From Macrostomum lignano (Eukaryota): a DNA stretch of 64,000 nucleotides. The DNA lies in assembly GCA_002269645.1 (NCBI GenBank), contig NIVC01000486.1, forward strand, positions 372,001 to 436,000, given 5' to 3'. The notes beneath the pieces are model-generated. The model worked only from the letters and a program-made list of their open reading frames with translations. It was not told the origin of the DNA and ran no database searches. Positions within the stretch are counted from its first letter, which is position 1; each line of letters begins with the position of its first letter. A program made the position numbers and the translations under genes. Below, in pieces: positions 5,203 through 21,408 of the stretch.

Positions 5203-5702
5203 AAAGTTTTGTATTATTATTATTACATTAAATCATACTAGTACGCCACTGTTGAGTGTTGACACAGAAAAAGTATTAAACAACAATATAACATGCCGCA
5301 CTGCACATGCGCAGGTACGCCATTGCAAATTTGTTTCCTATAAATAGTTAGAAGGCCTAGTTAAAATTGTGAATGCAAAATTATAATAAATATTTATTCT
5401 GAGTCGACCTAAGTTTATATAAAAGCTTGTACTTCACTAAAAAATTCTTTCAAGACATATTATAAAACTTACAAGCAGTTATTCTTGCTGATTGACATTC
5501 GGTATCAATAGTAAACTAAAAAAACTCGAATCGACGAGGAAGCTTGCTGATTTCCAGAATTCAGTATTAGCTCATTTTAGCTCTTTGAAGCTCTTTGCTT
5601 TATATAAGCACACAAGTACAGACAAAACATAAAAATCCAGATTAGAGCATTAGAAATAGCTACCATTGATTGCATCTTTGCGTTAATAAACTCTTCTCAG
5701 TT

Positions 5703-6230
5703 ATGGCTTCAATAGGCCTATCGCTACCAAGTCCTGTTCTTCGCATAGTTGAAGCACTCGGTCTTCAACCATTACCAATGGAAGGAGGATTCTACAAGGA
5801 AATGTTCCGAAGTCATAATACTGTGTCTTTCGCTGATTCTATCCATGCTACAAGCACAAACATCTACTATCTAATAACCAGCTCGCAATTTAGCCGTTGG
5901 CACAAGCTGCTTCAGGACGAAACCTGGTCCTATCTTGGAGGCACTTCAACAGCTACAATGGATTTGATTTCACCTGATGGAAACCATAGTCAAGTCTTTT
6001 TTGGTGAATTGAATCGAGTGGCTCACAATAACAGTGGCACACGGCAGTATACTTTATGTTTTACTGTGCCTGCAAAAACTTGGTTTACTGTACATTGTGA
6101 TTCTGCTGCTGAAGACGCCTATGCACTCTTTTCATGTGTTTGTGCACCTGGTTTTGAGTTCTCAGATGCTGAGTACTCTGACTCAGCTGCTTTGAGTAGA
6201 ATTTTTCCAAACTGCAGCGATATTCATTAA
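5703..6230 (+). CDS. Cupin_5 / DUF985 family protein, intronless
   Basis: Motifs LGLQPLPMEGGFYKEMFRS, STNIYYL, SRWHKL..DETW, TVPAKTW, ALFSCVCAPGFEFSD. ATG at 5703. Confidence 0.85.
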   Translation: MASIGLSLPSPVLRIVEALGLQPLPMEGGFYKEMFRSHNTVSFADSIHATSTNIYYLITSSQFSRWHKLLQDETWSYLGGTSTATMDLISPDGNHSQVFFGELNRVAHNNSGTRQYTLCFTVPAKTWFTVHCDSAAEDAYALFSCVCAPGFEFSDAEYSDSAALSRIFPNCSDIH

Positions 6231-7497
6231 TTTTTACTGGACTTTAATGCTGCTTTCTGGTTTAACTTTTTTACTTAAGTTACAGTTAGCTAGCCTAACT
6301 GTTAGAGTTTTGACTTTTAACCATGTTTTTAAAGCTCTGTAAGTAAAGAACAATCATCAGCTGAAACATTAAAATAGGCATATTGCTTTTCTTTTACTCC
6401 CATTCTCATAATAATTTTTCCATCTTTTATCCTATTTACACAAATTTCATCCAATATTTTTAGAGTCTCCTGTTTTATAAGGACTTTTTTAATTCTCTAT
6501 ATTCATTAAAGTTCTATCCTAAATAATAGGCCTATAATACATTAGTTCAAATAGAAAAATCTTAGTCATTGACTTTTTAGATGTTTTAACCCACATCAAC
6601 TTGAAATGCAAAATGCAAATAATTTGGCTTTATAATTTAACATTGTACTTAATTTAAATTACTTGTAAATATAAATGTTGCTAAATGTATATAAAGCCAG
6701 CAGCAATGTTACCAGCAATGACAATAGAAATATCCTATCAAATCTTATAAACAGCTTCACATAGTCCATCTAAGACCTTTGAGCTTTAGTCTTAGTCCAA
6801 TTAGTGCTCCAACTTCTAGTTCCTTCATTGGTTTACGAGTACTAATGTCATATTGAGTCAATCTGGCACTGAAGTTGTCACATTGAAATAATAGGCCTAG
6901 GTTTAACTTGATATAGCTATACCTTATATATACCTGATATAGCCAGCATATCCTTCTCCAGTAGTTGTATGACTGGGGCTAGATTCAATTGAGCCTCATG
7001 GTCCTTTATTGTTGCATGGGGGATCGTCTTTCCAATATTTCAGTTTGCCCTTGTGTTGCCCTGCTCAGGCAACACACATACGCTCACTTTGCTGCTCTCT
7101 CTTCTTGCTTGGTTCTGCATGCAGCTGTTGACCGCGGAGTGAATCACAGCTCTCTAACCCTGATAACTAACTAGAGGTAGCAGTCCATTTGCTTGGAAAG
7201 TTGGAATGCTTGATTAGCTACTAATTGTTAATTATCGCTTTATTGAGATTTGCAACTGCTAATAGCAATATTGTTTGACTGCCGCGTGTCACATGGCAAG
7301 CATCAACATATACAACATACATGTACGTAATCACGCGCACCCAGTTTAACCATTCGCGTGTGTAGGTTTCCCCAGAACGAAATAAACATCAATTCTCACC
7401 TTGGCAAGAACTACAGCGGCGATGCATTAGACGGAGAGCAACAGTTACATTATCGAACTAAATAATTGTCCAACTTATCAAACAATTAAGCGCCAAA

Positions 7498-7650
7498 ATG
7501 TGGACGCTGACAGCTACTCTAGAGCTACAGCTGGACTCGGTGCACTCAGGGCTGCTCCGTGCGGCCTTTCGAGCTGACGAGAGCGTCCGCGCTGGCCTGC
7601 CACGTCCAAGCGATCCACTGCGCCGTCGGCGACTCCAGCTCACAGGCCAT
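7498..7650 (+). CDS. Host gene 5' fragment, possibly Pcc1/LAGE3 (KEOPS)-like, truncated at the viral junction
   Basis: AAAATG start and GC-rich codons (MWTLTATLELQLDSVHSGLLRAAFRADE..RRRRLQLTG). The resemblance to the Pcc1 N-terminus is weak. Confidence 0.3.
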
Positions 7651-7781
7651 AACCATATTATTCATAAACCATATTATTCACACAATTCAGCAAAAGAAGA
7701 TTGGACTGTCAGGTGCAGATAACAAGAGATTCATTTTTGATGACAACATTAACAGTCTACCGTTCCGGCAATGGAGAATAG
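7651..7781 (+). pseudogene. Extreme C-terminus of protein-primed DNA polymerase B
   Basis: HIIHTIQQKKIGLSGADNKRFIFDDNINSLPF(G)NGE* matches the Polinton pPolB terminal motif K..LS..DxKR.I..D.I.TL..G. Confidence 0.7.
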
Positions 7782-7895
7782 GTTTAGGAGGTGGAAGTTG
7801 GGTTTAGGAGGTGGAAGTTGGGTTTAGGAGGTGGAGATTAGGTTCGGGCACTGGAGTTTAGGTTTAGGTGGAGTTTAGGTTTAGGTTTAAGAGAA
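7782..7895 (+). repeat. GGTTTAGG-containing short tandem repeats between PolB and protease
   Basis: (GGTTTAGGAGGTGGAAGTTG)x3 followed by TTTAGG variants. Confidence 0.7.
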
Positions 7896-7927
7896 AGTTT
7901 AATAAACCTCATAAAAATGGCATAAAA

Positions 7928-8326
7928 ATGACGATAAATAACTTTCTTGAAGATTTGGCTAATGAACTGGATATCCCAAACTTTAGAGGAATATTTATGA
8001 GGGACACTGCCTGATTTTCCTCTAAGAAAAGAATGCGGCATCATGAACTTCGACACCACCGATAAGCCAGGATCTCATTGGGTTTGCTGGGTGATTGATC
8101 CCGATCGCAAGCACAAGTGTTATTACTTCGATAGCTATGGGACGGCAGTACCAGAAGAGCTAAGAAATTATATGAAGGGCAAAAGTAATAAAAAAATTTA
8201 CCACTCAGACTTATTCTCCAAGGTCTTAGCAGTGATATTTGCGGTGAGCTGTGCATGACTGTTTTGTATGCAATGACCAAAACACGAAAGACCTACAAGG
8301 AAATTATTCTAGGCTGTGTTTCATAA
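7928..8326 (+). pseudogene. Adenain-like (C5) maturation cysteine protease, two frameshifts
   Basis: Joined frames: MTINNFLEDLANELDIPNFRGIFMRD / LPDFPLRKECGIMNFDTTDKPGSHWVCW..YYFDSYG.. / ILQGLSSDICGELC. Catalytic His, Asp, Gln and Cys motifs are present. Confidence 0.88.
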
Positions 8327-8330
8327 GGGT

Positions 8331-9050
8331 TCATTGTGCATTTCTCGTCGTCCTTGCCGAATTTCTCGTCGTCCTTCTTTCCGCATAATGTTGAAGAACG
8401 TTCTCGAGTTCATTTCTCAGCTGACTCATGTCATCAGTACCAACCATGTTCAAGTTCATTCGAATTGATTGTTCATAAAGATCCTGAATGGTTTTGAACT
8501 CATCCTCTGAAATGAACTTATCGTCTATTGCCCTTGAAATGTACCCTATGATTGATGTGTGCACCCTTTTCTCTTTTACTTGCTTCTGTAGCTGCTTTAG
8601 TTTTTTTCGCCTGTTTCGCGCTAATGCTCCAGTAATTGCTGAAATAAGTCCACATGCTGCACCTACTGAGCCGAGCGGGATTGCGATTGGAATTGTAATG
8701 GCCGGCAACACTGAGACAGCTGCAGCAGACCCAGTTAGAACAGACACAGATCCGAGAGTAATATTACTGTAATCAAAATATCTACAGTGAGCATTGTAGC
8801 GCTTAATTTTCTTTGTGTTGTGAAAAATCTGTTTTTCAAGATCATCTCGCATTTTTTTAATCTCTACCAGTCGAAACTGCTGAGAGTTACATGAAATGAT
8901 GGGGTAGAGTTTTTGCTGCTCATATTGAGGTGCACTAGGTGCTGTGGGAGCATTCGGTGCCATTGGGTTTGGTGCTGTTGGGTTTGGTGCTGTCGGTATT
9001 TTAGGTTCAGCGTATTGAGACTGATCGTATAGAGAATTTTGTTGGGCCAT
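8331..9050 (-). CDS. Polinton/adintovirus membrane-hairpin protein (resembles the GasderminX-type accessory ORF)
   Basis: LYPII..QQFRL..I, central hydrophobic hairpin (ITLGSVSVLTGSAAAVSVLPAITIPIAIPLGSVGAACGLISAIT), basic stretch and ISRAIDDKFISEDEF. The ORF is open; the family name is from recall. Confidence 0.65.
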   Translation of the reverse strand: MAQQNSLYDQSQYAEPKIPTAPNPTAPNPMAPNAPTAPSAPQYEQQKLYPIISCNSQQFRLVEIKKMRDDLEKQIFHNTKKIKRYNAHCRYFDYSNITLGSVSVLTGSAAAVSVLPAITIPIAIPLGSVGAACGLISAITGALARNRRKKLKQLQKQVKEKRVHTSIIGYISRAIDDKFISEDEFKTIQDLYEQSIRMNLNMVGTDDMSQLRNELENVLQHYAERRTTRNSARTTRNAQ

Positions 9051-9077
9051 TTTTTTCTCTAGAAAAAAAATAAAAAA

Positions 9078-9840
9078 TTACAAAACTACCCGGTTGAAAG
9101 ATCTGTTGTTTTGAAAAAGATCTGTTTTCTTTTTGATAATTTCATCTGCAGTAATGACCGGACGAGCAGTAGATTCTGCTTCATCAATAGCAATATCACG
9201 AAGATTGAGTGCTCTCTCCAGGCGATTAAGCCTCCTTATTATTTTACCCCAAGAGCTATACATTCCATTTAGATAGCTACTGTGTGATACATCGTTTCTC
9301 TCTAATGCTTCAAGTCTCTTTTAATTCTATCATGCAACGCTGTTGACTGGTTCATGAACTCTTCTAAATTATTGACTTTAACTGTGTTGGTTGCGACGTT
9401 TTCTTTAATTCTATCATGCAACGCTGTTGACTGGTTCATGAACTCTTCTAAATTCCTCACTTTAACTGTGTTTGTGAAAACTCCTTCTTCAAGAATACTC
9501 ATCCGTCTATCAGTGGAATTTCCCAGAAGATTAACTGTCGATGCTAACCCATTGATTTGCGAGACTGCCGAAGTTATTTCTGACCTTAGTTCATTAGTGC
9601 TGTGATCAAACTGCACATAAAGCTTATCACTTTCAAACTTCTGCCTAGCTACTTTAAGCCTGAGATCTTCCATGTTTATTTGCAACTGGTGCATGGAGCG
9701 CTCTAGGGCCTTCAGTCTGTTTTGATTCAGTTTGATCTCTGGGATCTCTTCGTCGCTGTTGATATATATCGCCTGTCAAGGAAGGAAGTTGTGAGAGTGC
9801 TGTTGCCTGTAGTTGACTCACCTGCAAAATTTACTGACAT
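9078..9840 (-). pseudogene. Fragmented viral coiled-coil protein (includes ORF 9302-9694 with an 87-bp internal duplication)
   Basis: An A-rich ATG at 9840 (MSVNFAGES) is followed by broken frames. The TNTVKV.NLEEFMNQSTALHDRIK unit occurs twice. Confidence 0.45.
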
Positions 9841-9856
9841 TTTTTTGAATGAAAAA

Positions 9857-10667
9857 TTAAAGTAAAATTCTTTTCTCCTTATTAATCATGACAAACTGAT
9901 AGGGTTGGTTCTACTTTTCATAGCATATGTTAACAAATTCCTCCTCTGATATTGTTCTGTTAGAATTCTTAGCTGGATATGTAATGTGAGCTGAGCTGGG
10001 GCAATGACCTCATTATAAAATCGTGTCAGTCGATCCTGGCCTGTGGTATGGTTGGGAAAAGGAGAATCAAATTACAGTTACCTCTAATTGTTTTATTTGG
10101 CAGTTCAAACCAGTTTTGGGCAATGTAAATAACATTGCAGTTATTGTGTCTACCCCGGGTAAAATAATTTTCTATCTGTTTCTGGGGACCGGTCATGCAG
10201 TCATCGAAGACAATCAGGTGCTTTCTCCCCTTTTCTAGTTCATCAGGTTGAGGTAAGAGTTTAGTTTTAGGATCTATCTGTGGATCTCCATAAGTGAAAA
10301 CTTTAATGTTTTGCCATTTTTCATTGTCTGGGATGTGCTTTGCGTATTCAGTGGCTACAACTTCCGGGTTGCTGTTGAGGTCTTTTTGATATCTAAAACA
10401 TTGAATAATATCTTCCTTGTTGAGTTTGTTCTGTAGGCCCGCTACTAGCATTTTATACTCATCTTGATACAGAGTGGGTGAATAGATATGTAGTGTGTCA
10501 TAATCGAGGAATCCAGGTCTGAGGAGCATGTTAAAAACTCTGAAGGTTTTCCCTGACCCAGATGAGCCAACAACAATGCATCGGAAGTGCCCTGGAATTA
10601 TCTCGTTGTGAGCAAATTTTATCTGATTGCGTGTCCAGTGGGGATGAAAGTCGTTTGTAAAGTCCAT
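9857..10667 (-). pseudogene. A32-like (FtsK-HerA) genome packaging ATPase
   Basis: Walker A GSSGSGKT, Walker B LIVFDD, FTRGRHNNCNVIYIAQ motif. The C-terminus continues after a frameshift (ISEEEFVNICYEK*NQPYQFVMI), with a TAG at 9911-9913. Confidence 0.92.
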
Positions 10668-10706
10668 TTTTTAAGTAAAAAAAAACTTTTTCTTCAAACT
10701 TGTGTA

Positions 10707-11668
10707 CTTCGGGTGTGTCCAAAGTTATGTCACTGACGTGAAAACAGACGAACTTGCAATCGCAGATGAACAAAACAGTGCCACTCAACAATATAGTCCC
10801 CCAATATCAATCACTCTCTGGCAGTGCTCATACAGCTTGTCCACCTCAGCCTGCAGGTGTTTTTAATCCAACAGCCATAACCAGTGCAACGCGGCCTGTT
10901 TGACCTCTTCATGATTTGCGAAACTCTTCTTGGAAAAGTCAGCCTTTAGCCATTTGAACAGAAATCTGTCGCACAAGTTGAGGTCCGGGCTGTAGGGACT
11001 GTCAGAGCAGATTCACTCGCCGTGCAGGTAGAAAATCCGAAACAGGCTTACAGGTGTGCGACCGTGCGGTGTCCACCTGCCATAGAACCTCGTCCAGGAG
11101 ACATGGATTCGACCGAAGAGTGCGCCAAAGGACCCTAGTGTGCCGGGCAAAAGCGAATAAAAACTACTGACAATCGAACTTGACGTTTGACCCTCGATGA
11201 GACATCTTTGTTTGGCGTAAAGGCCACCAGTGCAGCATGGTCTTCTTGTCCGAGACGGACCTCGTGGTTACGGTCGGCAGCAGACCCCAGCTCCCAGCCA
11301 GCAGCGATTGTCTGCCTTGCTGCCCTTGCCATCCAGGTGGAGCCAGCTTTCATCCTCAGCAACCAGGCAGTTTAGGATGTCATTCAAGCCCCGGCTACTG
11401 AACACCTTGCGGATCTGCTTGGTGCAGGCGTCTTGTCGAGATTCATGGTTATTTTTGTTCGCTGCATAGACGAGTTTTCATCGCGTTGCACTTGCTAAAT
11501 CTGCTTGGCGTATTCTTGCGATAGCTTGGGCCATAAACAACCTATGCACGTCTCAAATGCACTGGTATTGCTTCACTAAGTATTCTTTGCAGCTACACTA
11601 CCCACAAGTCCATGTGCCTACATATTTTAGAAGAGGCCTGCAGTGACATTACTTATGACATCCCGAAG
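10707..11668 (-). mobile_element. Degenerate mariner (DD34D) transposon, 962 bp, TA TSD
   Basis: Imperfect ~29-bp TIRs (CTTCGGGTGTGTCCAAAGTTATGTCACTG / CAGTGACATTACTTATGACATCCCGAAG) flanked by TA. Remnant motifs VAEDESWLH, WQVDTARSH, SPYSPDLNLCDRFLFKWLK. Confidence 0.85.
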
Positions 11669-12297
11669 TATTTAGGACGCGTGTGTCTTTTTTCAGTATG
11701 TGTATGTGTGTGTCTCTTTGCGGGATGTGTGTGTCTTTCGGGTTGTGTGTGTGTCTTTTTCGACTAGTCCTACATCCGACTAGTCCTACACCCTCACACC
11801 TCTTCTACCGTCAGGGTGCACCAAATTAGTCAAATTTAAAACCGCCTCTTTTCTTATATTCAGCTCTCATCTTCGCGTAGATGGCTGGATCGACACTATC
11901 TGCACTCGGTGCAATGGGTTTAATATCTGGTATTGATTTCTGGGTTTCATGAACCGTATCTTTAATCTTCTTGGCTGCTGTGACTACACTGCCAGCCGCT
12001 TCGGCAACGTTCTTGATGTTCTCTTTGTTCTCTCCAATGACCTTGTTGTATCGTGACTTGACTTGAAGTGCGCAGTGTGGGGCTGCACCCCAATTGTTAT
12101 TGGCGCTGAGTTTAGGACTGCTTGCTCTCTCCCCGCCTGCTCTGTCTGTCAATGTACGCTTATGCCTAACCGTCTAATCTATTAGCTGATGCTTTACTCG
12201 TATCTGCATGTACATCTATGTGCAATGCCAACTACAATAAATAACAACCTCTCGCCCATTTGCGGCTCAAGTTTGGCTAGCCAGCCACGACACGACA

Positions 12298-14007
12298 ATG
12301 GCGTCGCAAGCAGCCAGTGAATTACCTCTCAATGATCCAGCCATGGCTGAGGCCTGGCTGCAAAGTTTTGAAGCACTGTGCAGGCACAAAAAACTGCAAG
12401 ATACAAACGAAGAGAAGCAGGTGACAGACCTCTTCCTTGCTCGAGCAGGAATCAATGCAGTCCGATCCGTCTCTATCATGGCAAAGCCGAAAAACATTGA
12501 GGATATGACCTTCAAGGACATCAAGAAAATGATCATTGGGCGACTCCAGCCCAAAAAGAAACTGGTGATTGCAGAGCGCACAAGGTTCATGTCCCAGCGG
12601 CAGCTGTCAACAGAGTCGGCCCAGCAGTTCGCGGAGCGCTTGAGAGACGCGGCAAAGCACTGTGAGTTTGACAAGCTCAACGAAAAAGACTGCAAACAGT
12701 CAGCCGAGGATGACTTGATCCAAACACTGCTGATCAGCGGCTTGTGCGACCACAGCCAGCGGACTAAAACCCTTGAGCACATTCAGAGCTCTGAGAATCC
12801 AGTGACTCTGGACACGTGTCTGCAGTACATCCAGCAGTTAGAGCTCAACCAGAGCTACAGCTCAAGCGACCGATCTGCTGAAGCCCGAGAGCCTAGCAGA
12901 AGCTCCGAGACGGCTGAGAGTTCGACACCAGTTGCCAGCATCGACAGGAACCGCAATAGCGGTGCTCAGTGCAGGTCGTGTGGTCTGCAGCACCAGCCAG
13001 GCAAATGCCCTGCATTCGGGAAGACCTGTAACAAGTGCCACCGCAGGAACCACTTTGCTGCAGTCTGCAGGAGCAGCGCCAAGTCCAAGTCGGTTGCACC
13101 TGCCCATGAAATCGACACGAGTGAGTGTGAGCAGGCAGGCATCTACACCATCGTCGGCAACGAGAGCGGAAGCGGCAGCATAAAAACTGTGCTCATTGAA
13201 GGCAAGCCGTTCAAAATGCAGCTCGACTCTGGATCCGGTGCGAGCATCATTCCGATAAACTTCTGGAGGAGCCTCGGTGAGCCCAAGCTACGAAAGTCCA
13301 AGCTGAGACTGCGACAATTTGACGGAACGGTCATCAGAACTAGAGGATGCTTCACGGCGCTCATCGAAGTCGGGAGACAAATCGCCTGTGCGGATGTGAC
13401 GGTCACCGAATGCACAAAGGAGCACGGCCTCATCGGAACAGACGTGCTGGACTTCAAGCTGGACACAGCGACTGTCAATCAAGTGGAGCGCAGCAGCAAA
13501 CCGCTAGGCAAGCTCAAAGGTTTCCGTGCTCGGGTCCTGCTCAGGGAGAACGCTCAGCCCAGCTTCTTCGATGCCCGGCCGCTCCCGATTCATCTCAAGC
13601 CGCTGGTGGTGGCTAAGCTGCGGACGATGATCGACGCCGGGATCCTCGAGCCCGTGCCGCCAGGCGGCAGCAGTTGGGCATCGCCCATTGTGGTGGTGCG
13701 CAAGGCCGACGGAGACCTGAGAATCTGCTCCGACTACAAGGTCGGGGTGAACCCGAAGATCTGCTCTGACGCCTACCCACTGCCCAACATCGAGCAAGCC
13801 TTCAGTGCCCTGGCAGGTATGAAGCACTTCGCAATTGTAGACTTAACAAATGCCTACAACCAGATTGAGCTAGACGAGGCCTCCAGAGAAATACTCACCA
13901 TCAACACGCCCCTAGGCCTGCTCAGATGGACGCGCATGCCATACGGGGTGAAGACGGCCAGGCTGCCATGGAGGCAACGGTCGGCGGTGCGGTCAGCAAC
14001 CTGGTGA
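12298..14007 (+). CDS. Gypsy gag-protease-RT(N) polyprotein
   Basis: Paired Zn knuckles CRSCGLQH..CPAFGKTCNKCHRRNHFAAVC, protease LDSGSG, RT motifs WASPIVVV, RICSDYK and TRMPYGVKTA. The frame is broken near 13960 by a short deletion. Confidence 0.92.
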   Translation: MASQAASELPLNDPAMAEAWLQSFEALCRHKKLQDTNEEKQVTDLFLARAGINAVRSVSIMAKPKNIEDMTFKDIKKMIIGRLQPKKKLVIAERTRFMSQRQLSTESAQQFAERLRDAAKHCEFDKLNEKDCKQSAEDDLIQTLLISGLCDHSQRTKTLEHIQSSENPVTLDTCLQYIQQLELNQSYSSSDRSAEAREPSRSSETAESSTPVASIDRNRNSGAQCRSCGLQHQPGKCPAFGKTCNKCHRRNHFAAVCRSSAKSKSVAPAHEIDTSECEQAGIYTIVGNESGSGSIKTVLIEGKPFKMQLDSGSGASIIPINFWRSLGEPKLRKSKLRLRQFDGTVIRTRGCFTALIEVGRQIACADVTVTECTKEHGLIGTDVLDFKLDTATVNQVERSSKPLGKLKGFRARVLLRENAQPSFFDARPLPIHLKPLVVAKLRTMIDAGILEPVPPGGSSWASPIVVVRKADGDLRICSDYKVGVNPKICSDAYPLPNIEQAFSALAGMKHFAIVDLTNAYNQIELDEASREILTINTPLGLLRWTRMPYGVKTARLPWRQRSAVRSATW

Positions 14008-16157
14008 TCTACCAAGACGACATGTGCGTTGGCGCCACCACAGCGGACGAATTGGACAGCAAAGTCCGGGACCTGCTGAGAGCGCTTTCTGATGCCGGCA
14101 TGTCAATCAACGAAAAAAAGTGCGTTTTCCGCAGCACGGAAATCAGTTTCCTTGGCTACCGCATCGCGGCTGACGGCGTGCGCCCTGATCGGAAGCTGGT
14201 GGAGAAAATCCTCGGCGTGAGCACCCCGGCGAGCAAAAAGGAACTCGAATCGTTTCTAGGAATGACGGTGTACTACTCGCGCTACATCAAGTCCTACTCG
14301 GAGAAGACCGAGCCGCTGACCGAGCTGCGGAGCAAGAAAGTCGCGTTCCATTGGGGACCTCGGCAGCAGAAAGCGTTTGACGAGCTCAAGCAGGCGCTTG
14401 CAGCTTCCCCAGTGGTCCGAATCTTCGATGCAAGAAAGCGCACAACTCTGACTACTGACGCCAGCGAAAAGGCCATAGCAGCAATCCTCTCTCAGGACGA
14501 GCACCCAGTGATGTACCTGTCAAGACGGCTGACACCGGCTGAGAGAAATTACTCGAATATCGAGCGAGAGGCCCTGGCTGTGGTGTGGGCCACTCAGAGA
14601 GCCAGACACTTTCTTCTCGGCAGCAAGTTTGTGCTCCAGTGCGATCATCAACCATTGGAGTTCATTTTTAGTCCGTCTCGGGAGCTTCCAAAAGTCACAT
14701 CGGCTAGGATCATGCGCTGGGCGTTGCAGCTGTCGGCCTTCGACTACGAAATCTCGTACATCAAGGGCAGCTGCATCCCGCATGTCGACGCGCTGTCTCG
14801 AATTGAATTCAAGGAGGAAGGCGATGGAGACGATTGCCAGGAAAGCTTCGTTCACTGGACAGAGACGGAGGTGCTCAAGCTGGAGCAGATCAGAGACGCC
14901 ACTGACAATGACCCGGTGCTCGCCAGCGTCAAGTGCAGGATCCGCAGCAATGCGTGGAACAACTGCTCGGCAGCGGAGCGACCGTATAAAGCCGTCCGCC
15001 AGCAGCTCTCAGTGGAGAATGGCGTCGTCTGCCTGAGAGACCTGGTGGTCCCGCCTAGCCGGCTGCGGCAAGACGTGCTGCGAGCGGCTCACGGCGACTC
15101 GCACTGCGGTGCCCTAGCGACAAGAAATCGACTCAAGCTGGAAGCCTGGTGGCCGGGTCACTGCGAGGACGTCGAAAACTTCGTCAAGCAATGCCAGCGA
15201 TGCGCGGAGATCCGTCCAATGCCTGCCAGAACGTGCCACACCTGGCCGGCTGAAGATGGTCCCTGGAGACGCGTGCACATGGACCATGCTCACGTTCCCG
15301 GCTTCGGCCTGCTGCTCATTGTGGTGGACGCCTTCTCCGGCTGGCCGGAAGCGGTGCCTGTTGCCGACAAGAGCGCGACGACGGTCATCAAGGTACTCCG
15401 CCTGATTTTCTCCCGCCTGGGTGTGCCGCATACCTTGGTGGCGGACAATGCTCCGGAGTTCCGTGACCAGCAGCTGCACGAGTGGCTCAAGAAGATCGGC
15501 TGCTCGCCGATGCACTCGCCGCCGTATCATCCGCAGTCAAACGGGTGCGCCGAGCGCATGGTCCAGACCGTCAAGAAGGGGCTGCGGGCCTTCGCCGTGC
15601 ACCAGGGCCGGTTCGACGCGTACCTCGCCAAGCTGCTGCTTAACTACCGGGCCACTCCGCGGGGCGACGGGCGTGGCAGTCCATCTGCGCTTATGGGGCG
15701 ACAGCTGCGAAGTCCGCTGACCCTCCAATTCGACACCGATGCGCCGCTCGTCTACCAGTCGCGACCGGGGGGGGGGCTGGCTGAGACCGTCCGCTTTGTG
15801 GTACAGGCCGGCCACAACACGGCCGTGGTCACCCGGGACAAGGATGACAGGCCTGTGCTGGCACACCGGGATCAGCTGCGCTTGCGTCCGAGTCCAAGCC
15901 GGGCGGAAGTTACGGACAACACTGACGACAGCGGCCGGGACCCTGACGATGCCGGCCGGAGCCCTGACGACGGCGACCGGAACCCTGACGAAGGCGGCCG
16001 GAACCCTGACGAAGGCGGCCGGAACCCGGAACCTGATAGCCAGCGGCCAGACGCAGCGGCACCACCGCAGCAGGCCGCTGAAGCTACACCGGAGCCCCGA
16101 CGAAGCTGCAGGTCGACCAAAGGGGTCGCCCCAGACCGACTGTCTCCTCGTTGGTGA
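13926..16157 (+). CDS. Gypsy RT(C)-RNase H-integrase
   Basis: YQDD, TDAS, NYSNIEREALAV, DHQPL, H..H/C..C Zn finger, and DDE core (HMD, ADNAPEF, NGCAERMVQT). Confidence 0.92.
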   Translation: MDAHAIRGEDGQAAMEATVGGAVSNLVIYQDDMCVGATTADELDSKVRDLLRALSDAGMSINEKKCVFRSTEISFLGYRIAADGVRPDRKLVEKILGVSTPASKKELESFLGMTVYYSRYIKSYSEKTEPLTELRSKKVAFHWGPRQQKAFDELKQALAASPVVRIFDARKRTTLTTDASEKAIAAILSQDEHPVMYLSRRLTPAERNYSNIEREALAVVWATQRARHFLLGSKFVLQCDHQPLEFIFSPSRELPKVTSARIMRWALQLSAFDYEISYIKGSCIPHVDALSRIEFKEEGDGDDCQESFVHWTETEVLKLEQIRDATDNDPVLASVKCRIRSNAWNNCSAAERPYKAVRQQLSVENGVVCLRDLVVPPSRLRQDVLRAAHGDSHCGALATRNRLKLEAWWPGHCEDVENFVKQCQRCAEIRPMPARTCHTWPAEDGPWRRVHMDHAHVPGFGLLLIVVDAFSGWPEAVPVADKSATTVIKVLRLIFSRLGVPHTLVADNAPEFRDQQLHEWLKKIGCSPMHSPPYHPQSNGCAERMVQTVKKGLRAFAVHQGRFDAYLAKLLLNYRATPRGDGRGSPSALMGRQLRSPLTLQFDTDAPLVYQSRPGGGLAETVRFVVQAGHNTAVVTRDKDDRPVLAHRDQLRLRPSPSRAEVTDNTDDSGRDPDDAGRSPDDGDRNPDEGGRNPDEGGRNPEPDSQRPDAAAPPQQAAEATPEPRRSCRSTKGVAPDRLSPRW

Positions 16158-16603
16158 TGAGGGGATGTTGTATCGTGACTTGACTTGAAGTGCGCAGTGT
16201 GGGGCTGCACCCCAATTGTTATTGGCGCTGAGTTTAGGACTGCTTGCTCTCTCCCCGCCTGCTCTGTCTGTCAATGTACGCTTATGCCTAACCGTCTAAT
16301 CTATTAGCTGATGCTTTACTCGTATCTGCATGTACATCTATGTGCAATGCCAACTACAATAAATAACAACCTCTCGCCCATTTGCGGCTCAAGTTTGGCT
16401 AGCCAGCCACGACACGACAGACCTTAAAAATCTTGGCCCCCTGAGCGATCAAATCGGCAAGACCGTTCCCTGAGCGCTCTTTCCTTGGATAGTGGCCTGC
16501 AGGGAAAAGTCCAGATCCGCGTTTAATAAGATTAAGTTCCTCTTTGTCATAGTATTTGTCCACGTCTTTCTCAAAAATAATCGGCATTTTTTTTAATAGA
16601 AAT

Positions 16604-17814
16604 TTATTTTTTGTTAAACCGTGAAAGCAAAAGCTCTCTCGCCCTCTTATCGATGTATTTTCTCTCAAGCATTTTGTCTAGGATGTGAACAAACTCTTTT
16701 CTATTCTCATCTTTCATTCCAGTCTTTGCCGCTCCTAGAAGAACAGCTAACCGCATGTAGAATTCAGGCATGCCTTTTCCAGTTGAAGGTGGTTGGTCTT
16801 GGGGTTGTGGAGTTGGTTGGGCTTGAAGCTGCTGGGGAGGTGATGCAAAAGACTGCTCACTTTCAGAGATGGAACTGTCATGTGGCGCTTGTCTTTGTTG
16901 AGGTGTGAAAACTCTTTGATTGATTTTATTCATTCGATCTGGAGAGTGTTGTTCTAAGTGTTGCCAGTCTGTTGGGTTTTGTTTCTTATATTCAGCTACT
17001 TTCAAAGGGTGTAAGTCTAACTGCTCGAGTTGCCTGAGTACTTGTTCTTCTGTGGAATGTTGCTGCTGTTGTGGCGGTTGCTGTTGTTGTTCTAGATATT
17101 TTATGACTTCCGCCTGATCTGGCAAATCGAACCATTGTTTAAAGTGTTTGTACTTTTTGAATCTAGTTAAGGTTGACACCGTTATCATACATAAGTCTCA
17201 GGACTTCTGGGGCCTTTAGTATTTCTATATCTCTAGCAAGAGCAAAAGTCACTAGATCTCTATAGTTCTTTAGCTGTTTGTCCGAGATTCTCTCTTGGTT
17301 CTTGGTCATAAAATTCAGTAAGGTTTCTGTGAAAGGAATGCTCTTAGTTTCTGAGCCTTTGACAACAGCAATATGTTTCTTATTTATGTCGATATAATAT
17401 TCCACCGGTTCATTATAAATATTTTTCTCCACATACTTATTCCAAATACATTTTCCCATCATGTTCTACACGCTTTACTGGTCCAAAAATGTTATCTGTC
17501 ACTTTTAGTTGCTGTTGTTGTGGTTGTAATTGCTGTAATTGCAGTTGTTGATGTGATTGCGGCTGTATCTGCGGTGCTTCTGGAATTTTGCCCAAAGCCT
17601 TTTGCACCTGGGTTTCCTGTATGTCGTCGATAGTTTCTTTAACCTGATCAATATTTTTCTTAGCTTCTCCATACCCAGGTTTGTGAAACTCTGTGGCTGC
17701 TTGGACAAACTCATTGTAGAATTGTTGCTCCTTATTTATTAGCCCGGTAACTCGTTTCTCTGCTTGTGCTAGCTTCTCCAATTCAGATATCTGCTGTGTA
17801 CTTTTTCGCTTCAT
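16604..17814 (-). pseudogene. Conserved Polinton-type protein broken into three frames (17437-17814, 17163-17462, 16604-17188)
   Basis: Overlapping consecutive ORFs. The C-terminal motif GKG..MRLAVLLGAAKTG..NRKEFVHILDKML resembles the RL.LL.G...AGN..E...I..L signature of Polinton ORFs. Confidence 0.6.
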
Positions 17815-17845
17815 TTCTTATTTTATTTTATTTTTAGTTAAAAAA

Positions 17846-19449
17846 ATGAGCAACCCGCTGACACCAGTTTTCTACAAAATTAACAAGCCTATTTTGAGTG
17901 ATGATAGCACAATCAAAGCGACTCAGGTAAGAATTCCCAGTCAGGAAAATCAGAATGAAACTAATCTTGGTCCTGGTCAAACATTGACATTTAACATACA
18001 ATGGATGTTCGTCTTTGGTTAGTGTGCACAGTCTTAAGAGCGGCTTCCATATGACATTTCAATTCAAGACAAAGGGTGGTGCGGATGCGGCTCGTGCTAA
18101 CGTTGACAAGCATGATGCGGATGTGGCTCTGATCAGTAACTTTTGGGCGTACATGTTCAAGGAGTTTAGTGTATCAAATGGGAGCACAGAGTTGGAGCGA
18201 ATCGCCAACTTTGGAATTGTCTATGACGCTCATTGTTTGATCGAGAATCCTGATTTTATTCAGTTGGGAAGTGGTGCGGGTTTTATTGCAGATGAAAAAG
18301 AAGGAGACATCAATGACAGTGGCTATAAAAAGAGGAAGAAGAGATACAACTATGCATTGCAAGGTGTTGATGATGCTGCTAAGAACCCGCTGTATCGGTC
18401 TGTTGATGTATTTGTACCACTGAGATTCATGAGTGGATTCTGTAATACATTTAATCGATTGACTAGTAACTTTAGCTACACCTTTAGGATGACTAGAGAT
18501 GATCGCAGTAGAGTGTTGTGGACTGGGGCGGACCACACAAGGATGGAGGTGAAGCTAACCGGAATCGAGCTGTATTTGGAAGTCATTGAGCCAAAGACTG
18601 CACTAAAAGCTGATTATCTCAAGGCAATAGAGAAGGACATTGATGTTGCATACACGGCCTACATGTGTCGAGATGAGCGAAACGAAACTAGAACAAACAT
18701 CTGCATTAAACATCTGCATTAAAGAGGGATCATGCAGCAATCCAAGGTATATTATTATTAACATGAGAAACCCAAATAGCATTATACGCTACATGCATGG
18801 AGACGTGCGGTCCATTCAGCATGAAATCAGTGATAATCTTTTACCCTGTGTGGTGTCTCAACAGACTAACACAGGAAACACGAGTACGTGGCAGGTAAGA
18901 CTTGCCGGAAAAAAGGTACGAGCTCCACTTAGGGCAACCCGCGCTTATATTTGATATTTAGGAGTAAATTGTTACACGATCGATAAATTCAACCGCCAAA
19001 ATGTCACGTGGTTAAAAATACGTTTCACAATACAATATACGAATAATTTATTAACTGCACTACTTGAAGTAGAGTAGTAAGAAAAAGTAAGAAAAGGTTA
19101 GTTAGACGAACGGCCCTTTTACGGGCTCCTAGTCACGACACAACACCCTGCACTGCCACAAAATGGAGATTTCAGTCAGAACAAGATTAGCAAATTTTAC
19201 AGCGAGTTGGTCGACTTGGCTGTGAAAGAGAACAATGGAATTGCTATCACTGCTCTTCAATATGGAACTCTATATCCGATGTTTGGCGCTGATGTGTCTG
19301 CCAGACAAATGCCTACTGATAATAGCCCTGTGAATATCGTGACTAACATTGAGAGGACTACCGCAACACCCGTGGACCTGTACATTATCTATGCATTTGA
19401 GAGGAAGGTGAAGCTTAACATGATCAACAATTCATCCAGTAAAGTTTAA
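17846..19449 (+). pseudogene. Double-jelly-roll major capsid protein
   Basis: Joined frames: ..DVALISNFWAYMFKEF..ELERIANFG..VFVPLRFMSGFC..FRMTRDD..NPRYIII..DNLYPALP..LYPMFGADVSARQ..LYIIYAFER. Disrupted by a frameshift near 18000, a 13-bp duplication at 18697-18722 and a solo LTR. Confidence 0.88.
18849..19145. mobile_element. Solo LTR (297 bp) inserted in the capsid gene
   Basis: Termini TGTGGTGTC...GACACAACA (inverted, one mismatch) with 5-bp TSD CCCTG at 18844-18848 and 19146-19150. Confidence 0.8.
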
Positions 19450-19468
19450 ATATTTTTTAGGACAAAAA

Positions 19469-20381
19469 ATGGAAGCTATAGCCGAAAGACTAAACAACAT
19501 TGTTTCACACTCTAAGGAGAGCATTCCTATTACAATAACCGGGCGAATTAATGACTCAAACGGGATGTTTGTTGAAAAATTAGAGCAGGCGATTCGCCTG
19601 GATCCAGGCGCTAATTACCATGTCTATCTTAACGACTTCACTGGTTGGTCAAACGTTCCCAATGTGACGGCAGCAAATAATAAGTTTCATTACAAATGGA
19701 AAGGTGCAGCAGCAGACCCTGTGGTATTCCCTGTGAGCACGCAGTGTGGATACCTACAATTACTTTCTAGAAAACGTCTTTACTAAAAGAGGCCATTTTG
19801 AGACACCTGATGCGAGTAAGCCAGAGAAGAAACTGTTCCCTGTCAAACTAACCTATGATCTCACTGTAATGAGAGTGGTCATGCAAGTTCACAAAGATGC
19901 GGAGGTTGAGTTTAAAGATGACACTTGGTATAGGGAACTGGAATTCGAGAAGAAAGTTTATAAGGCAGAATCCACGGCGCGGACCCAACCCCATCTCCCA
20001 CCTCAGATCCGTATCCCACCTGAGCTTCATTTCCCACCCGCCACTCAAGCAACGGGGGCCGTTAGAATGGCCCGGGAAAGTGTAAGCGGTTTGTTCTTAG
20101 CACCCAATATTGCAGACATTGTAAAGGGTTTGAATATTATAATCAGAACTAATCTCAGTCTTGATTGGGTATTTAAGGGAAAGCGAACGAATATTTTGTA
20201 CAACATCTCCAACTCGGTTGCTGGAGGACAGACGGTGGTAGAGAAACCAAATCCAGTGAAAAGAGTTGTATTGAGTAATAAGGAGATTCACGAGATTGTG
20301 CTACAGTTTGAGACTGAAGATGGGGTGGGTGTTGATTTCAATGAAGAGTTTGTATTGACGTTGATCATTGAGAGAATGTGA
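19469..20381 (+). pseudogene. Minor capsid (penton) protein, one frameshift near 19745
   Basis: IRLDPGANYHVYLNDFTGWSNVPNVTAANNKFHY, APNIADIVKG..IIRTNL, ILYNISNSVAGGQTVVEKPNP, EDGVGVDFN.EFVLTLIIER follow the Polinton penton pattern. Confidence 0.85.
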
Positions 20382-20419
20382 GAAAATGCGTTCCCTTTTA
20401 AGTATGCTTACCGAGAATA

Positions 20420-20690
20420 GAGTATAGAGTGGTATGAAAAAATGCGCTCATGTGTACCCCAGTCTGAGAGGTTGTGGGCGCGGGCGTCGCGTGTGTGGGG
20501 GAGAGGGGAGTGTATGTGTGTGGGCGCAGCGTGCGTGGGGGAGAGAGATTTTCACTTTAACTGAGCCCAGCCGAGGAAGAATTCCGTCTCGAGGGAAGGC
20601 CAGAATGCAAACGATTTCGGCCTCGGGCGAGGCCAAAATGAAAACGATTTTGGCCTTTCAGTTTTTTGGCTGCATACTATTAATTATAAG
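20420..20690. other. Candidate Polinton right terminal repeat region
   Basis: GC-rich non-coding tract after the penton, with hairpin GGCCTCGGGCGAGGCC and a repeated AATG.AAACGATTT.GGCC. No partner TIR is in the window. Confidence 0.35.
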
Positions 20691-21408
20691 TCCTGTAACT
20701 TAAGTGAGAATACCGCTACTTTTCGCCCTTAGATTATGTTGATTTTTTTGCTGTCCTAGGGAGGGGTGGGGGTGGTAGACTGATGTTATCCCCCTTAGAT
20801 GAGTGGTTGTAAGTATTGCATTGGGATAGCTAATTTTAAATGTAAGAGCATTATGTATAGATAGATTTTACTAGATGTTGATCTATGGGGGATTTAATCT
20901 CTAATGTCCCAGAACTTCCCTCATGACAACTACTGAGTTTCGACTTGAGATTTTTAGCGCAATTGCCTAATGATTTCTGCAAAGTATAGTAGCTGTCGTA
21001 ATCTTTTACGTAGGTTACTCCATACTTATGAAACTAGTGTCTTTGGAGAGCTAGATTAATATTAGGGACATTGATATCAACGCCGGGCCAATATTTTCTC
21101 ATGTACTCGCTGCATTCAAGTTTGCATTGGTACTTGGATTTGTACAATGGATTAGGCTGAGTATAATAAGAACCTGGAGAGACAGCTGGAAACATTTTTA
21201 GAGAAAATTTAGATTTTTTTCAAAGGGTAAGGACCCTGCGCTGATAATTTAAAGTCTTAGGGATCTGGTTTCGCCGCTTCGGATTGAATATGGGGAGAAG
21301 AATGCAGATTCTCTTCTGATTGTTTCGAAGATGTTATGGGTGGATGCCAGTGGATTATTTCAGTGTCAGTGAGCATAACAGGTGTTAGCACAGATACTCG
21401 TACTAAAA

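What the first reader, a model, noticed from the sequence alone, without database searches (positions are those of the whole stretch)
7651..20690. Fossil Polinton/adintovirus genome with a complete virion-morphogenesis module
Seen: once three TSD-bounded insertions are removed (mariner, Gypsy, solo LTR), about 7.4 kb of AT-rich intronless ORFs remain. Their order is pPolB tail(+), adenain(+), membrane-hairpin ORF(-), coiled coil(-), A32 ATPase(-), amphipathic 126-aa protein(-), conserved ORF(-), then divergently major capsid(+) and penton(+). Established: protease + ATPase + DJR capsid + penton + pPolB define Polintons/adintoviruses. Inference: this is a divergent endogenous virus lineage of this host, possibly uncharacterised and largely reconstructable. 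Integrase and most of PolB are lost. A substitution stop and TE hits show real decay, not only assembly noise.
Basis: partly seen in the sequence, partly recalled or inferred. Interest (0 to 1): 0.82.

Follow-up and report, generated by a model that had tools for sequence, protein, structure and literature searches.

The report
Broken copy of young flatworm Polinton
This is a broken copy of a well-known kind of virus-like transposon (a Polinton) that sits in well over a hundred near-identical copies in what is very likely a flatworm genome; the more unusual part is that its sister copies carry interchangeable genes for a predicted DNA-binding protein, most followed by their own row of mirror-image DNA words that may be its binding sites.

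Summary
In detail: a pPolB tail, adenain, A32 ATPase, a double-jelly-roll capsid gene (fold tested on a sister copy) and a penton-like gene lie in the stated order, cut by mariner, Gypsy and solo-LTR insertions with target duplications. It is not a lone ancient relic. It is a left-truncated, decayed member of a young Polinton/Maverick family: 146 of 150 scored capsid matches in the genome are at least 95% identical. Sisters are 15-22 kb, add PLA2, integrase, protein X and full pPolB, and have terminal inverted repeats with 6-bp duplications (10 of 12). The window's copy ends at 23,402, not 20,690. Database names point to Macrostomum lignano. The element is a new member of a known kind. Side result: a slot beside the left repeat (lost in this copy) holds one of at least nine divergent helix-turn-helix genes (ParB/KorB-like fold, weak scores); 8 of 9 are followed by a type-specific palindrome array, but only 1 of 12 held-out homologues was. 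This scan had already noted single examples on other DNA of this genome; the gene-array pairing across types is what is added here. Binding is untested.

The parts
7656..7807 (+). 3' tail of the protein-primed DNA polymerase (pPolB); the element is truncated to the left
   Evidence: tblastn with a sister pPolB piece; nucleotide match to sisters starts at 7,656-7,666
7928..8326 (+). Adenain-type cysteine protease (133 aa in sisters), broken by frameshifts near 8,008 and 8,210
   Evidence: Peptidase_C5 E 1.6e-4, above cut-off, in a sister; His/Asp/Gln/Cys motifs; breaks
8331..9050 (-). ~235-aa protein with a hydrophobic hairpin; frame open in this copy; function not assigned
   Evidence: ORF list; 84% to a sister; no Pfam or NCBIfam family above cut-off
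9060..9840 (-). Coiled-coil protein, broken into several frames
   Evidence: only weak coiled-coil/SMC-like hits
9857..10667 (-). A32/FtsK-type packaging ATPase (266 aa in sisters); frameshifts near 9,980-10,030 and a stop near 9,912
   Evidence: Pox_A32 above cut-off; Walker A/B and RGRH motifs; breaks
10705..11670 (-). Inserted, internally deleted mariner-like transposon
   Evidence: TA-flanked inverted ends; YSPDL-type motif; empty-site joint in a short-read contig
11826..16587 (-). ~126-129-aa ORF, split by the Gypsy element
   Evidence: two tblastn halves either side of the Gypsy
12044..16419 (+). Inserted Gypsy LTR retrotransposon, very young
   Evidence: identical 254-bp LTRs and 5-bp duplication; RT, RNase H, rve; empty-site joints
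16604..17814 (-). ~400-aa conserved ORF of unknown function, in three frames here
   Evidence: no family above cut-off
17846..19449 (+). Major capsid protein (428 aa in sisters, double jelly roll); frameshifts near 17,993 and 18,710 plus the solo LTR
   Evidence: PF21738 E 3.3e-5 in a sister, below cut-off; fold searches; breaks
18849..19145 (.). Solo LTR inserted in the capsid gene
   Evidence: TG...CA ends and 5-bp duplication; empty-site joints in 4 of 4 runs
19469..20381 (+). Penton-like minor capsid protein (287 aa in sisters), frameshift near 19,742; identity inferred from position and size
   Evidence: Atlas feature score 0.98 to viral hypothetical clusters, recognition just under the tool's threshold; no Pfam or PDB hit
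20386..21388 (.). Inner part of the right terminal inverted repeat (a long-repeat subtype)
   Evidence: same sequence at left ends of sisters; 20,671-20,950 recurs in 10 full-length genome matches, including an inverted pair on one contig
21389..23121 (+). Fourth insertion, carrying a THAP-domain transposase fragment
   Evidence: THAP E 3e-12; absent from sisters; empty-site joints
23122..23402 (.). Outer terminal inverted repeat with ~83-bp internal repeats, ending in the family terminus (5'-AGTAG...CTACT-3')

Best explanation
The stretch 7,656-23,402 is a left-truncated, disabled copy of a young, high-copy Polinton/Maverick (adintovirus-type) family, very likely of the flatworm Macrostomum lignano. 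Shown: the gene set, the order, the terminal repeats, 6-bp duplications and the copy abundance. Inferred from what is established for Polintons: complete members copy themselves by protein-primed synthesis from the terminal repeats (pPolB), insert with the rve integrase, and would build non-enveloped DJR/penton particles that are filled by the A32 ATPase and matured by adenain, with PLA2 and protein X as likely entry and core proteins. This copy lost everything left of the pPolB tail and was then hit by four other transposons, so it cannot move or make particles on its own. In sisters, the lost left end holds an exchangeable cassette: a predicted helix-turn-helix gene, often behind a heat-shock-type element, usually followed by an array of ~14-18-bp palindromes of its own type. 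My working mechanism for it (inferred, about 0.45) is a type-specific repressor-operator switch that binds its own array and controls the element's early activity.
For: 150 of 493 capsid candidates scored; 146 of 150 at >=95% aa identity; 111 of 150 (hand count) with a 429- or 470-aa stop-free frame. Sister gene order and Pfam hits: PLA2 PF08398, rve, Adeno_PX, Peptidase_C5 and Pox_A32, all above cut-off. 6-bp duplications in 10 of 12 elements with both ends recovered, all different. Terminal repeats of 461-1,125 bp in 10 of 11 pairs compared. Capsid model (pLDDT 52) matches PBCV-1 Vp54 at E 5.9e-11, with all 26 listed PDB rows DJR capsids or scaffolds; VIA best hit faustovirus MCP Z 10.1, rmsd 6.3, 294 aligned. 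Nearest sisters are 97.5-99.3% identical in protease, ATPase and capsid. Two slot proteins are 96-97% identical to UniRef entries named M. lignano. Cassette: 14 of 31 informative left ends in the less biased sample carry a slot gene, in 7 types; types are mostly 20-35% identical, while integrase 5' ends of the same elements are 86-98% identical. Model pLDDT 90.8; top three fold hits KorB, KorB-operator and Spo0J, Z 6.8/6.2/6.1, 76-79 aligned, rmsd 3.0-3.7. An array lies within 1.5 kb downstream in 8 of 9 types, against 6 of 90 background tiles; related proteins carry related palindromes (E/F/G/H; A1/A2).
Against: The penton fold is untested and the capsid model is low-confidence. Only 3 of 145 scored pPolB matches lie in a stop-free frame over 1,200 aa, so most copies are broken, or the assembly has indel errors in repeats. 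Copy counts may include duplicated chromosomes (recalled for this species). Nothing shows particles or transcription. Cassette: fold Z under 8 may mean only a common helical arrangement, and there was no significant BFVD hit. Type C has no downstream array. Of 12 held-out homologues (3 types from this family, 8 loci elsewhere in the genome, 1 metagenomic contig), only 1 had an array by the same rule. 5 of 20 gene-less slots still carry E-type sites. Gene and array are physically linked, so their pairing within a type is expected in any case.
Confidence: 0.93

Rival explanations
1. The slot cassette is a partition or tethering module (ParB-parS/sopC or EBNA1-oriP logic): the protein binds its array to hold and segregate free element DNA, and the types act as incompatibility groups.
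For: 7 of the top 18 VIA rows are ParB-family DNA-binding domains (KorB, Spo0J, ParB, VirB, SopB). The arrays lie directly 3' of the gene in both gene orientations, with 3-10 sites of 14-18 bp in 47-119-bp units. In type D the arms stay constant over 10 sites while spacer and flanks change. A circular Maverick scaffold has been reported in a nematode (10.1101/2022.07.12.499685, passage).
Against: No ParA or ParB CTPase domain in the slot proteins. 17 of 31 informative left ends lack the gene. Most held-out homologues lack arrays. No free form is shown.
Confidence: 0.2
2. The palindrome arrays are not binding sites of the slot proteins; they are by-products of terminal-repeat recombination and slippage (or host-factor sites) that travel with whichever gene was captured.
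For: Held-out failure in 11 of 12. Arrays persist without a gene in 5 of 20 slots. B- and E-type units also contain an inverted copy of the element's terminal pentamer. The region is visibly recombinogenic: penton 3' halves sit at some left ends.
Against: Only 1 of about 71 tandem-repeat families outside the slot carries a recurring palindrome with 6-bp arms. None of 12 short gene-less slots has an array. Palindrome sequence follows protein relatedness.
Confidence: 0.35
3. The locus is an old, unique endogenous-virus relic, or host genes mistaken for viral ones.
For: Many breaks and four nested transposons in this copy.
Against: At least 146 copies at >=95%; identical Gypsy LTRs; intronless ORFs between terminal repeats with 6-bp duplications.
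Confidence: 0.02

Closest known systems
Polinton/Maverick elements of animals (vertebrate Mavericks, PMC8097293, passages)
   Same: pPolB, rve integrase, ATPase, protease, major and minor capsid genes, intronless ORFs, terminal inverted repeats, 6-bp duplications, 13-25 kb, accessory regions, most copies decayed
   Different: Terminus AGTAGA rather than the (AGT)2 or (AG)3 motifs given for vertebrates; different gene order (capsid pair diverges from the ATPase block); PZ/PW homology of the unknown ORFs not tested
Adintoviruses, Alpha and Beta (PMC8502044, sections 3.1-3.3 in part and passages)
   Same: Adenain, FtsK-type ATPase, hexon/penton, integrase, a PLA2 gene and a protein X domain
   Different: PLA2 and protein X are separate genes on either side of the integrase, not one PLA2X. 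PLA2 is described as an Alpha virion-module trait, while this polymerase gives no PF03175 hit (Beta-like); no gasdermin hit for the hairpin protein
Nematode Mavericks with cargo between the left repeat and the integrase (10.1101/2022.07.12.499685, passages)
   Same: A variable 1-5 kb region at the same place, exchanged between elements
   Different: Cargo there are intron-bearing WASP proteases and KRMA kinases; here they are intronless helix-turn-helix proteins of one very divergent family, with palindrome arrays
Plasmid ParB/KorB/SopB with parS/sopC arrays; EBNA1 with oriP (architecture recalled; fold rows)
   Same: A DNA-binding gene next to an array of ~16-bp palindromes; weak fold likeness of the HTH core to KorB/Spo0J
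   Different: No CTPase domain, no ParA, no sequence similarity; binding and function untested

Membership tests
Polinton/Maverick | Protein-primed B-family polymerase | tested here: met
   tail in the window; KxxxNxxYG and YxDTDS motifs in a sister piece; 526 relatives at E<=0.001
Polinton/Maverick | rve integrase | tested here: met
   met in sisters (PF00665 E 7.5e-9); deleted in the window's copy
Polinton/Maverick | Terminal inverted repeats with AG...CT ends | tested here: met
   right repeat in the window ends at 23,402; 461-1,125-bp repeats in 10 of 11 sister pairs
Polinton/Maverick | 6-bp target-site duplication | tested here: met
   10 of 12 sisters with both ends; not checkable for the window's copy, whose left end is lost
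Polinton/Maverick | A32/FtsK packaging ATPase and adenain protease | tested here: met
   Pox_A32 and Peptidase_C5 above cut-off in sisters; motifs
Polinton/Maverick | Double-jelly-roll major capsid protein | tested here: met
   Foldseek PDB E 5.9e-11, BFVD E 3.5e-11, VIA Z 10.1 on a pLDDT-52 model of a sister protein
Polinton/Maverick | Single-jelly-roll minor capsid (penton) | tested here: inconclusive
   position and size fit; Atlas 0.98 to viral hypotheticals; no Pfam or PDB sequence hit; not folded
Beta adintovirus | Divergent PolB, not of the pfam03175 type | tested here: inconclusive
   no PF03175 hit on two sister pieces, weak Endonuclease_7 below cut-off; but 32 of the 120 listed relatives carry a precomputed PF03175 mark; no reference sequences compared
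Beta adintovirus | GasderminX accessory gene | tested here: inconclusive
   hairpin ORF has no gasdermin hit in Pfam or NCBIfam; no profile-profile search or fold
Alpha adintovirus | PLA2X (PLA2 with C-terminal protein X) | tested here: inconclusive
   PLA2 (E 1.4e-13) and protein X (E 1.6e-7) are both present but as separate genes
Adintovirus (active virus) | Virions or free-ended genomes | not testable with these tools
   only assembled contigs were available
ParB/KorB-parS system (slot cassette) | ParB-type HTH DNA-binding core | tested here: inconclusive
   VIA Z 6.8, under the tool's trust level of 8
ParB/KorB-parS system (slot cassette) | N-terminal CTPase (ParBc) domain and a ParA partner | tested here: not met
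   no such Pfam domain in 8 slot-region ORFs from sisters or in 64 of 123 library relatives scanned; no ParA gene among the element's ORFs
ParB/KorB-parS system (slot cassette) | Specific binding to the adjacent palindrome array | not testable with these tools
   needs a binding assay

The most novel reading that the evidence does not exclude
An actively spreading animal Polinton family carries plug-in 'HTH protein plus cognate palindrome array' cassettes in at least nine specificities on a near-identical backbone. They act like plasmid incompatibility/partition modules or a phage immunity region: each element controls or tethers its own DNA, and variants escape repression by resident copies, with a heat-shock element coupling the switch to host stress.
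Probability: 0.3. Interest if true: 0.78.

Novelty: new member of a known kind. Interest (0 to 1): 0.42.

Why it matters
The window's copy is ordinary genomic debris of a known element class. The family matters more. It is young and abundant in a laboratory flatworm, and I found no paper on it, so it is a place to look for the Maverick particles that PMC8097293 says have not been observed. How Polintons decide between staying silent and spreading is open; a set of naturally swapped regulator-plus-array cassettes makes that question directly testable with a simple binding matrix.

Tried and rejected
Reads: the run search listed no holder on record as RNA, so expression is not addressed. At 100% likeness no short-read contig in 4 runs bridged 9,916-10,035, where this copy's private ATPase lesions lie; a hole proves nothing, so 'real decay or assembly error' stays open for those lesions. 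Contig depths were not used as copy numbers. Sequence searches of the PDB found nothing for the capsid, penton or slot alignments. Viral-contig scans found no relative of the capsid alignment or of one slot homologue. PHROGs gave no family shared by more than 2 of 54 slot homologues. Pfam gave no hit on the shared domain in 64 of 123 relatives scanned; one carried an unrelated RRM. My by-eye guess of DUF3102 was not supported by these scans. Atlas features for slot type A1 gave only unnamed or unrelated clusters. Rfam found no group I intron in 20 sister left-end loci or in window 5,000-30,000, so the intron noted by earlier findings was not seen in these copies. I first took 20,386-20,959 for a foreign insertion; it is a long-repeat subtype. 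Mononucleotide shuffles do not keep tandem repeats and were replaced by repeat-family and tile controls. No tree was built, because named adintovirus reference proteins were not among the hits. Literature: searches for Polinton+Maverick+flatworm, M. lignano+Polinton, Macrostomum+Maverick, Polinton+helix-turn-helix+palindrome and Maverick+cargo (listings and abstract starts only) showed no description of this family or cassette. 'Macrostomum' was absent from the one supplementary file held for each of PMC10748475 and PMC8502044. Their other tables, bioRxiv supplements and Repbase could not be seen and may list the family.
Full report
Observation. The three insertions are real: a TA-flanked mariner-like piece at 10,705-11,670, a Gypsy element at 12,044-16,419 with identical 254-bp LTRs and a 5-bp duplication, and a solo LTR at 18,849-19,145 with a 5-bp duplication. 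Short-read contigs show the empty site for each of them. On the window's own open frames Pfam gives Pox_A32 above cut-off, and Peptidase_C5 and the DJR-like domain below it. Integrase, protein X, PLA2 and most of pPolB are absent from the window. The element goes on past 20,690: its right terminal repeat spans about 20,386-23,402 and is split by a fourth, THAP-bearing insertion at 21,389-23,121.

Family. A search of the own genome with the largest open capsid piece scored 150 of 493 candidates; 146 of 150 are at least 95% identical, and 111 of 150 (hand count) lie in a stop-free 429- or 470-aa frame. A pPolB piece scored 145 of 1,016 candidates, but only 3 of 145 lie in a stop-free frame over 1,200 aa. 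Natural sister copies show the order: terminal repeat, variable slot, PLA2 (-), rve integrase, protein X, pPolB, adenain (+), hairpin protein, coiled coil, A32 ATPase, ~129-aa and ~400-aa ORFs (-), capsid 428 aa, penton-like 287 aa (+), terminal repeat. Of 12 elements with both ends recovered, 10 have a 6-bp duplication, each different; these ten are 15-22 kb long. Terminal repeats are 461-1,125 bp in 10 of 11 pairs compared. These are the features by which PMC8097293 defines Mavericks (passages). Two slot proteins are 96-97% identical to UniRef entries named Macrostomum lignano, so the host is very likely that flatworm.

Protein identity. A model of a sister's capsid protein (10 sequences, pLDDT 52) matches DJR capsids in three searches: PBCV-1 Vp54 E 5.9e-11, BFVD E 3.5e-11, faustovirus MCP Z 10.1, rmsd 6.3, 294 aligned. 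Its sequence relatives are few: 9 proteins, seven at 71-78% and two at 43-44%, none with an informative name; the penton-like protein has 13, all unnamed. These searches need shared words, so they bound closeness, not existence. The penton call rests on position, size and an Atlas feature match to viral hypotheticals; it was not folded. The polymerase has 526 relatives, those listed at about 38-46%, with names from a sea slug, a leafhopper and a coral. It lacks a PF03175 hit, which is the Beta trait in PMC8502044 (passages and part 2 of 6 of the text), yet 32 of 120 listed relatives carry that mark, and PLA2 is there called an Alpha trait. The element may be a mosaic; this was not settled.

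State of this copy. Nearest sisters are 97.5% (protease), 98.1% (ATPase) and 98.4-99.3% (capsid) identical by substitutions. Protease, ATPase, coiled-coil, ~400-aa, capsid and penton genes are broken by frameshifts, and the ATPase has a substitution stop near 9,912 where 12 of 12 sisters read through. With identical Gypsy LTRs, this is recent decay. The copy has no integrase, polymerase or left end, so it is inert on its own (inference). Whether each private lesion is real was not confirmed from reads.

How it likely works. Shown: gene set, ends, duplications, abundance. From established Polinton biology (recalled): protein-primed copying from the terminal repeats, integration by the rve integrase, and probable assembly of DJR/penton particles filled by the ATPase and matured by adenain. 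No particle or transcript is shown here, and PMC8097293 (abstract) states that Maverick particles have not been observed.

I asked for 40 left ends chosen from the pPolB hit list: 2 did not exist, 7 were uninformative, 14 of the remaining 31 carry a slot gene in 7 types, and 17 carry none. With the 13 ends of the first sample there are 9 types, and 3 more turned up later (K, L, M; L and M 85% alike). Most types are 20-35% identical, apart from E/F/G at 53-62% and K/L at 41%, while the integrase 5' ends of the same elements are 86-98% identical. A profile of six of them finds 123 library representatives, without a Pfam family for the shared domain in the 64 scanned. A model of type E (pLDDT 90.8) has a long helix and a helix-turn-helix; the best fold hits are KorB and Spo0J (Z 6.8, 6.2, 6.1) and 7 of the top 18 rows are ParB-family domains, all under the Z 8 trust level; BFVD gave nothing significant. 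A variable region at this place is known from nematode Mavericks, with other cargo (10.1101/2022.07.12.499685, passages).

Arrays. Earlier notes of this scan on other DNA of this genome (e1-9297849, e1-9034167, e1-9387326; unchecked AI notes) described one such gene with a palindrome array and a heat-shock element; that prompted my test across types. With a fixed rule (5-bp arms, gap up to 8, at least 3 exact copies in 1.5 kb), 8 of 9 types have an array just 3' of the gene, each of its own sequence; type C has one only upstream; background is 6 of 90 tiles. Related proteins carry related palindromes (E, G, H and F; A1 and A2), and in type D the arms are constant over 10 sites while the spacer changes. 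None of 12 short gene-less slots has such sites, but 5 of 8 long gene-less slots have E-type sites. Of 74 tandem-repeat families in all fetched DNA, 4 have a recurring 6-bp-arm palindrome, and 3 of these are slot arrays. A heat-shock-type element lies upstream of the gene in types A1, B, E (3 of 4 copies), G and H, and not in A2, C or D. Against: of 12 held-out homologues only type K passed the rule; L had two sites, and M, eight loci elsewhere in the genome (some beside a different pPolB) and one metagenomic contig had none. The rule was set after seeing the first nine types. So the pairing is a strong pattern within this family, not a general property of the protein family, and binding is untested. 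I put a type-specific repressor-operator switch at about 0.45, neutral hitch-hiking at 0.35 and a partition/tether role at 0.2.

Novelty. The element is a new member of a known kind. Searches of the held library (listings and abstract starts) and term searches in PMC10748475 (passages and one supplement), PMC8502044, 10.1101/2025.04.19.649669 (passages; it reports Orthopolintovirales-related insertions in Rhabditophora) and 10.64898/2026.10.13.758929 (passages) showed no description of this family or cassette. Unseen supplements and Repbase may hold the family. The likenesses to sopB-sopC and EBNA1-oriP are recalled, not tested.

Verdict. Interest 0.42: low for the broken copy, moderate for the young family and its exchangeable cassette.

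Noticed in passing
window 7,084-7,650: Another repeated sequence abuts the truncation point; contigs from several runs match it and then diverge at 7,587 and 7,650.
   Followed up: no
window 24,070-28,260: A DIRS/Ngaro-like retroelement by eye (gag-, RT- and tyrosine-recombinase-like ORFs, repeated ends) follows the element; the same sequence lies inside a sister's left end (L090).
   Followed up: no
L049:2879-3412, L052:772-1305, L077:2471-3004: Type A2 left ends carry the 3' half of a penton gene next to the terminal repeat, a sign of end-to-end recombination between elements.
   Followed up: partly
L023:5723-6442, L016:3608-3838, L110-L112: Slot genes (types D and K) also occur at the right end, after the penton gene, so both ends can hold the cassette.
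   Followed up: partly
L040, L060, L037 slot arrays: B- and E-type repeat units also contain an inverted pair of the element's terminal pentamer with a 3-base gap, like two joined ends.
   Followed up: no
L120-L123: Slot-family genes of types I and J lie a few kb upstream of a different pPolB (33-44% to this family's), i.e. in another Polinton family of the same genome, without arrays.
   Followed up: partly
L052:1682-1752: A tRNA-like match (Rfam 36 bits) inside a type A2 slot.
   Followed up: no
L012:3815-9907: A second element's left-end genes begin a few hundred bases after another copy's terminal repeat, i.e. one copy inserted into or beside another.
   Followed up: no
window 5,670-6,230: Cupin_5 (DUF985) ORF, E 4e-30, probably a host gene left of the element.
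   Followed up: no
window 55,685-58,800: Long GC-rich 12-bp tandem array, about 243 register copies.
   Followed up: no
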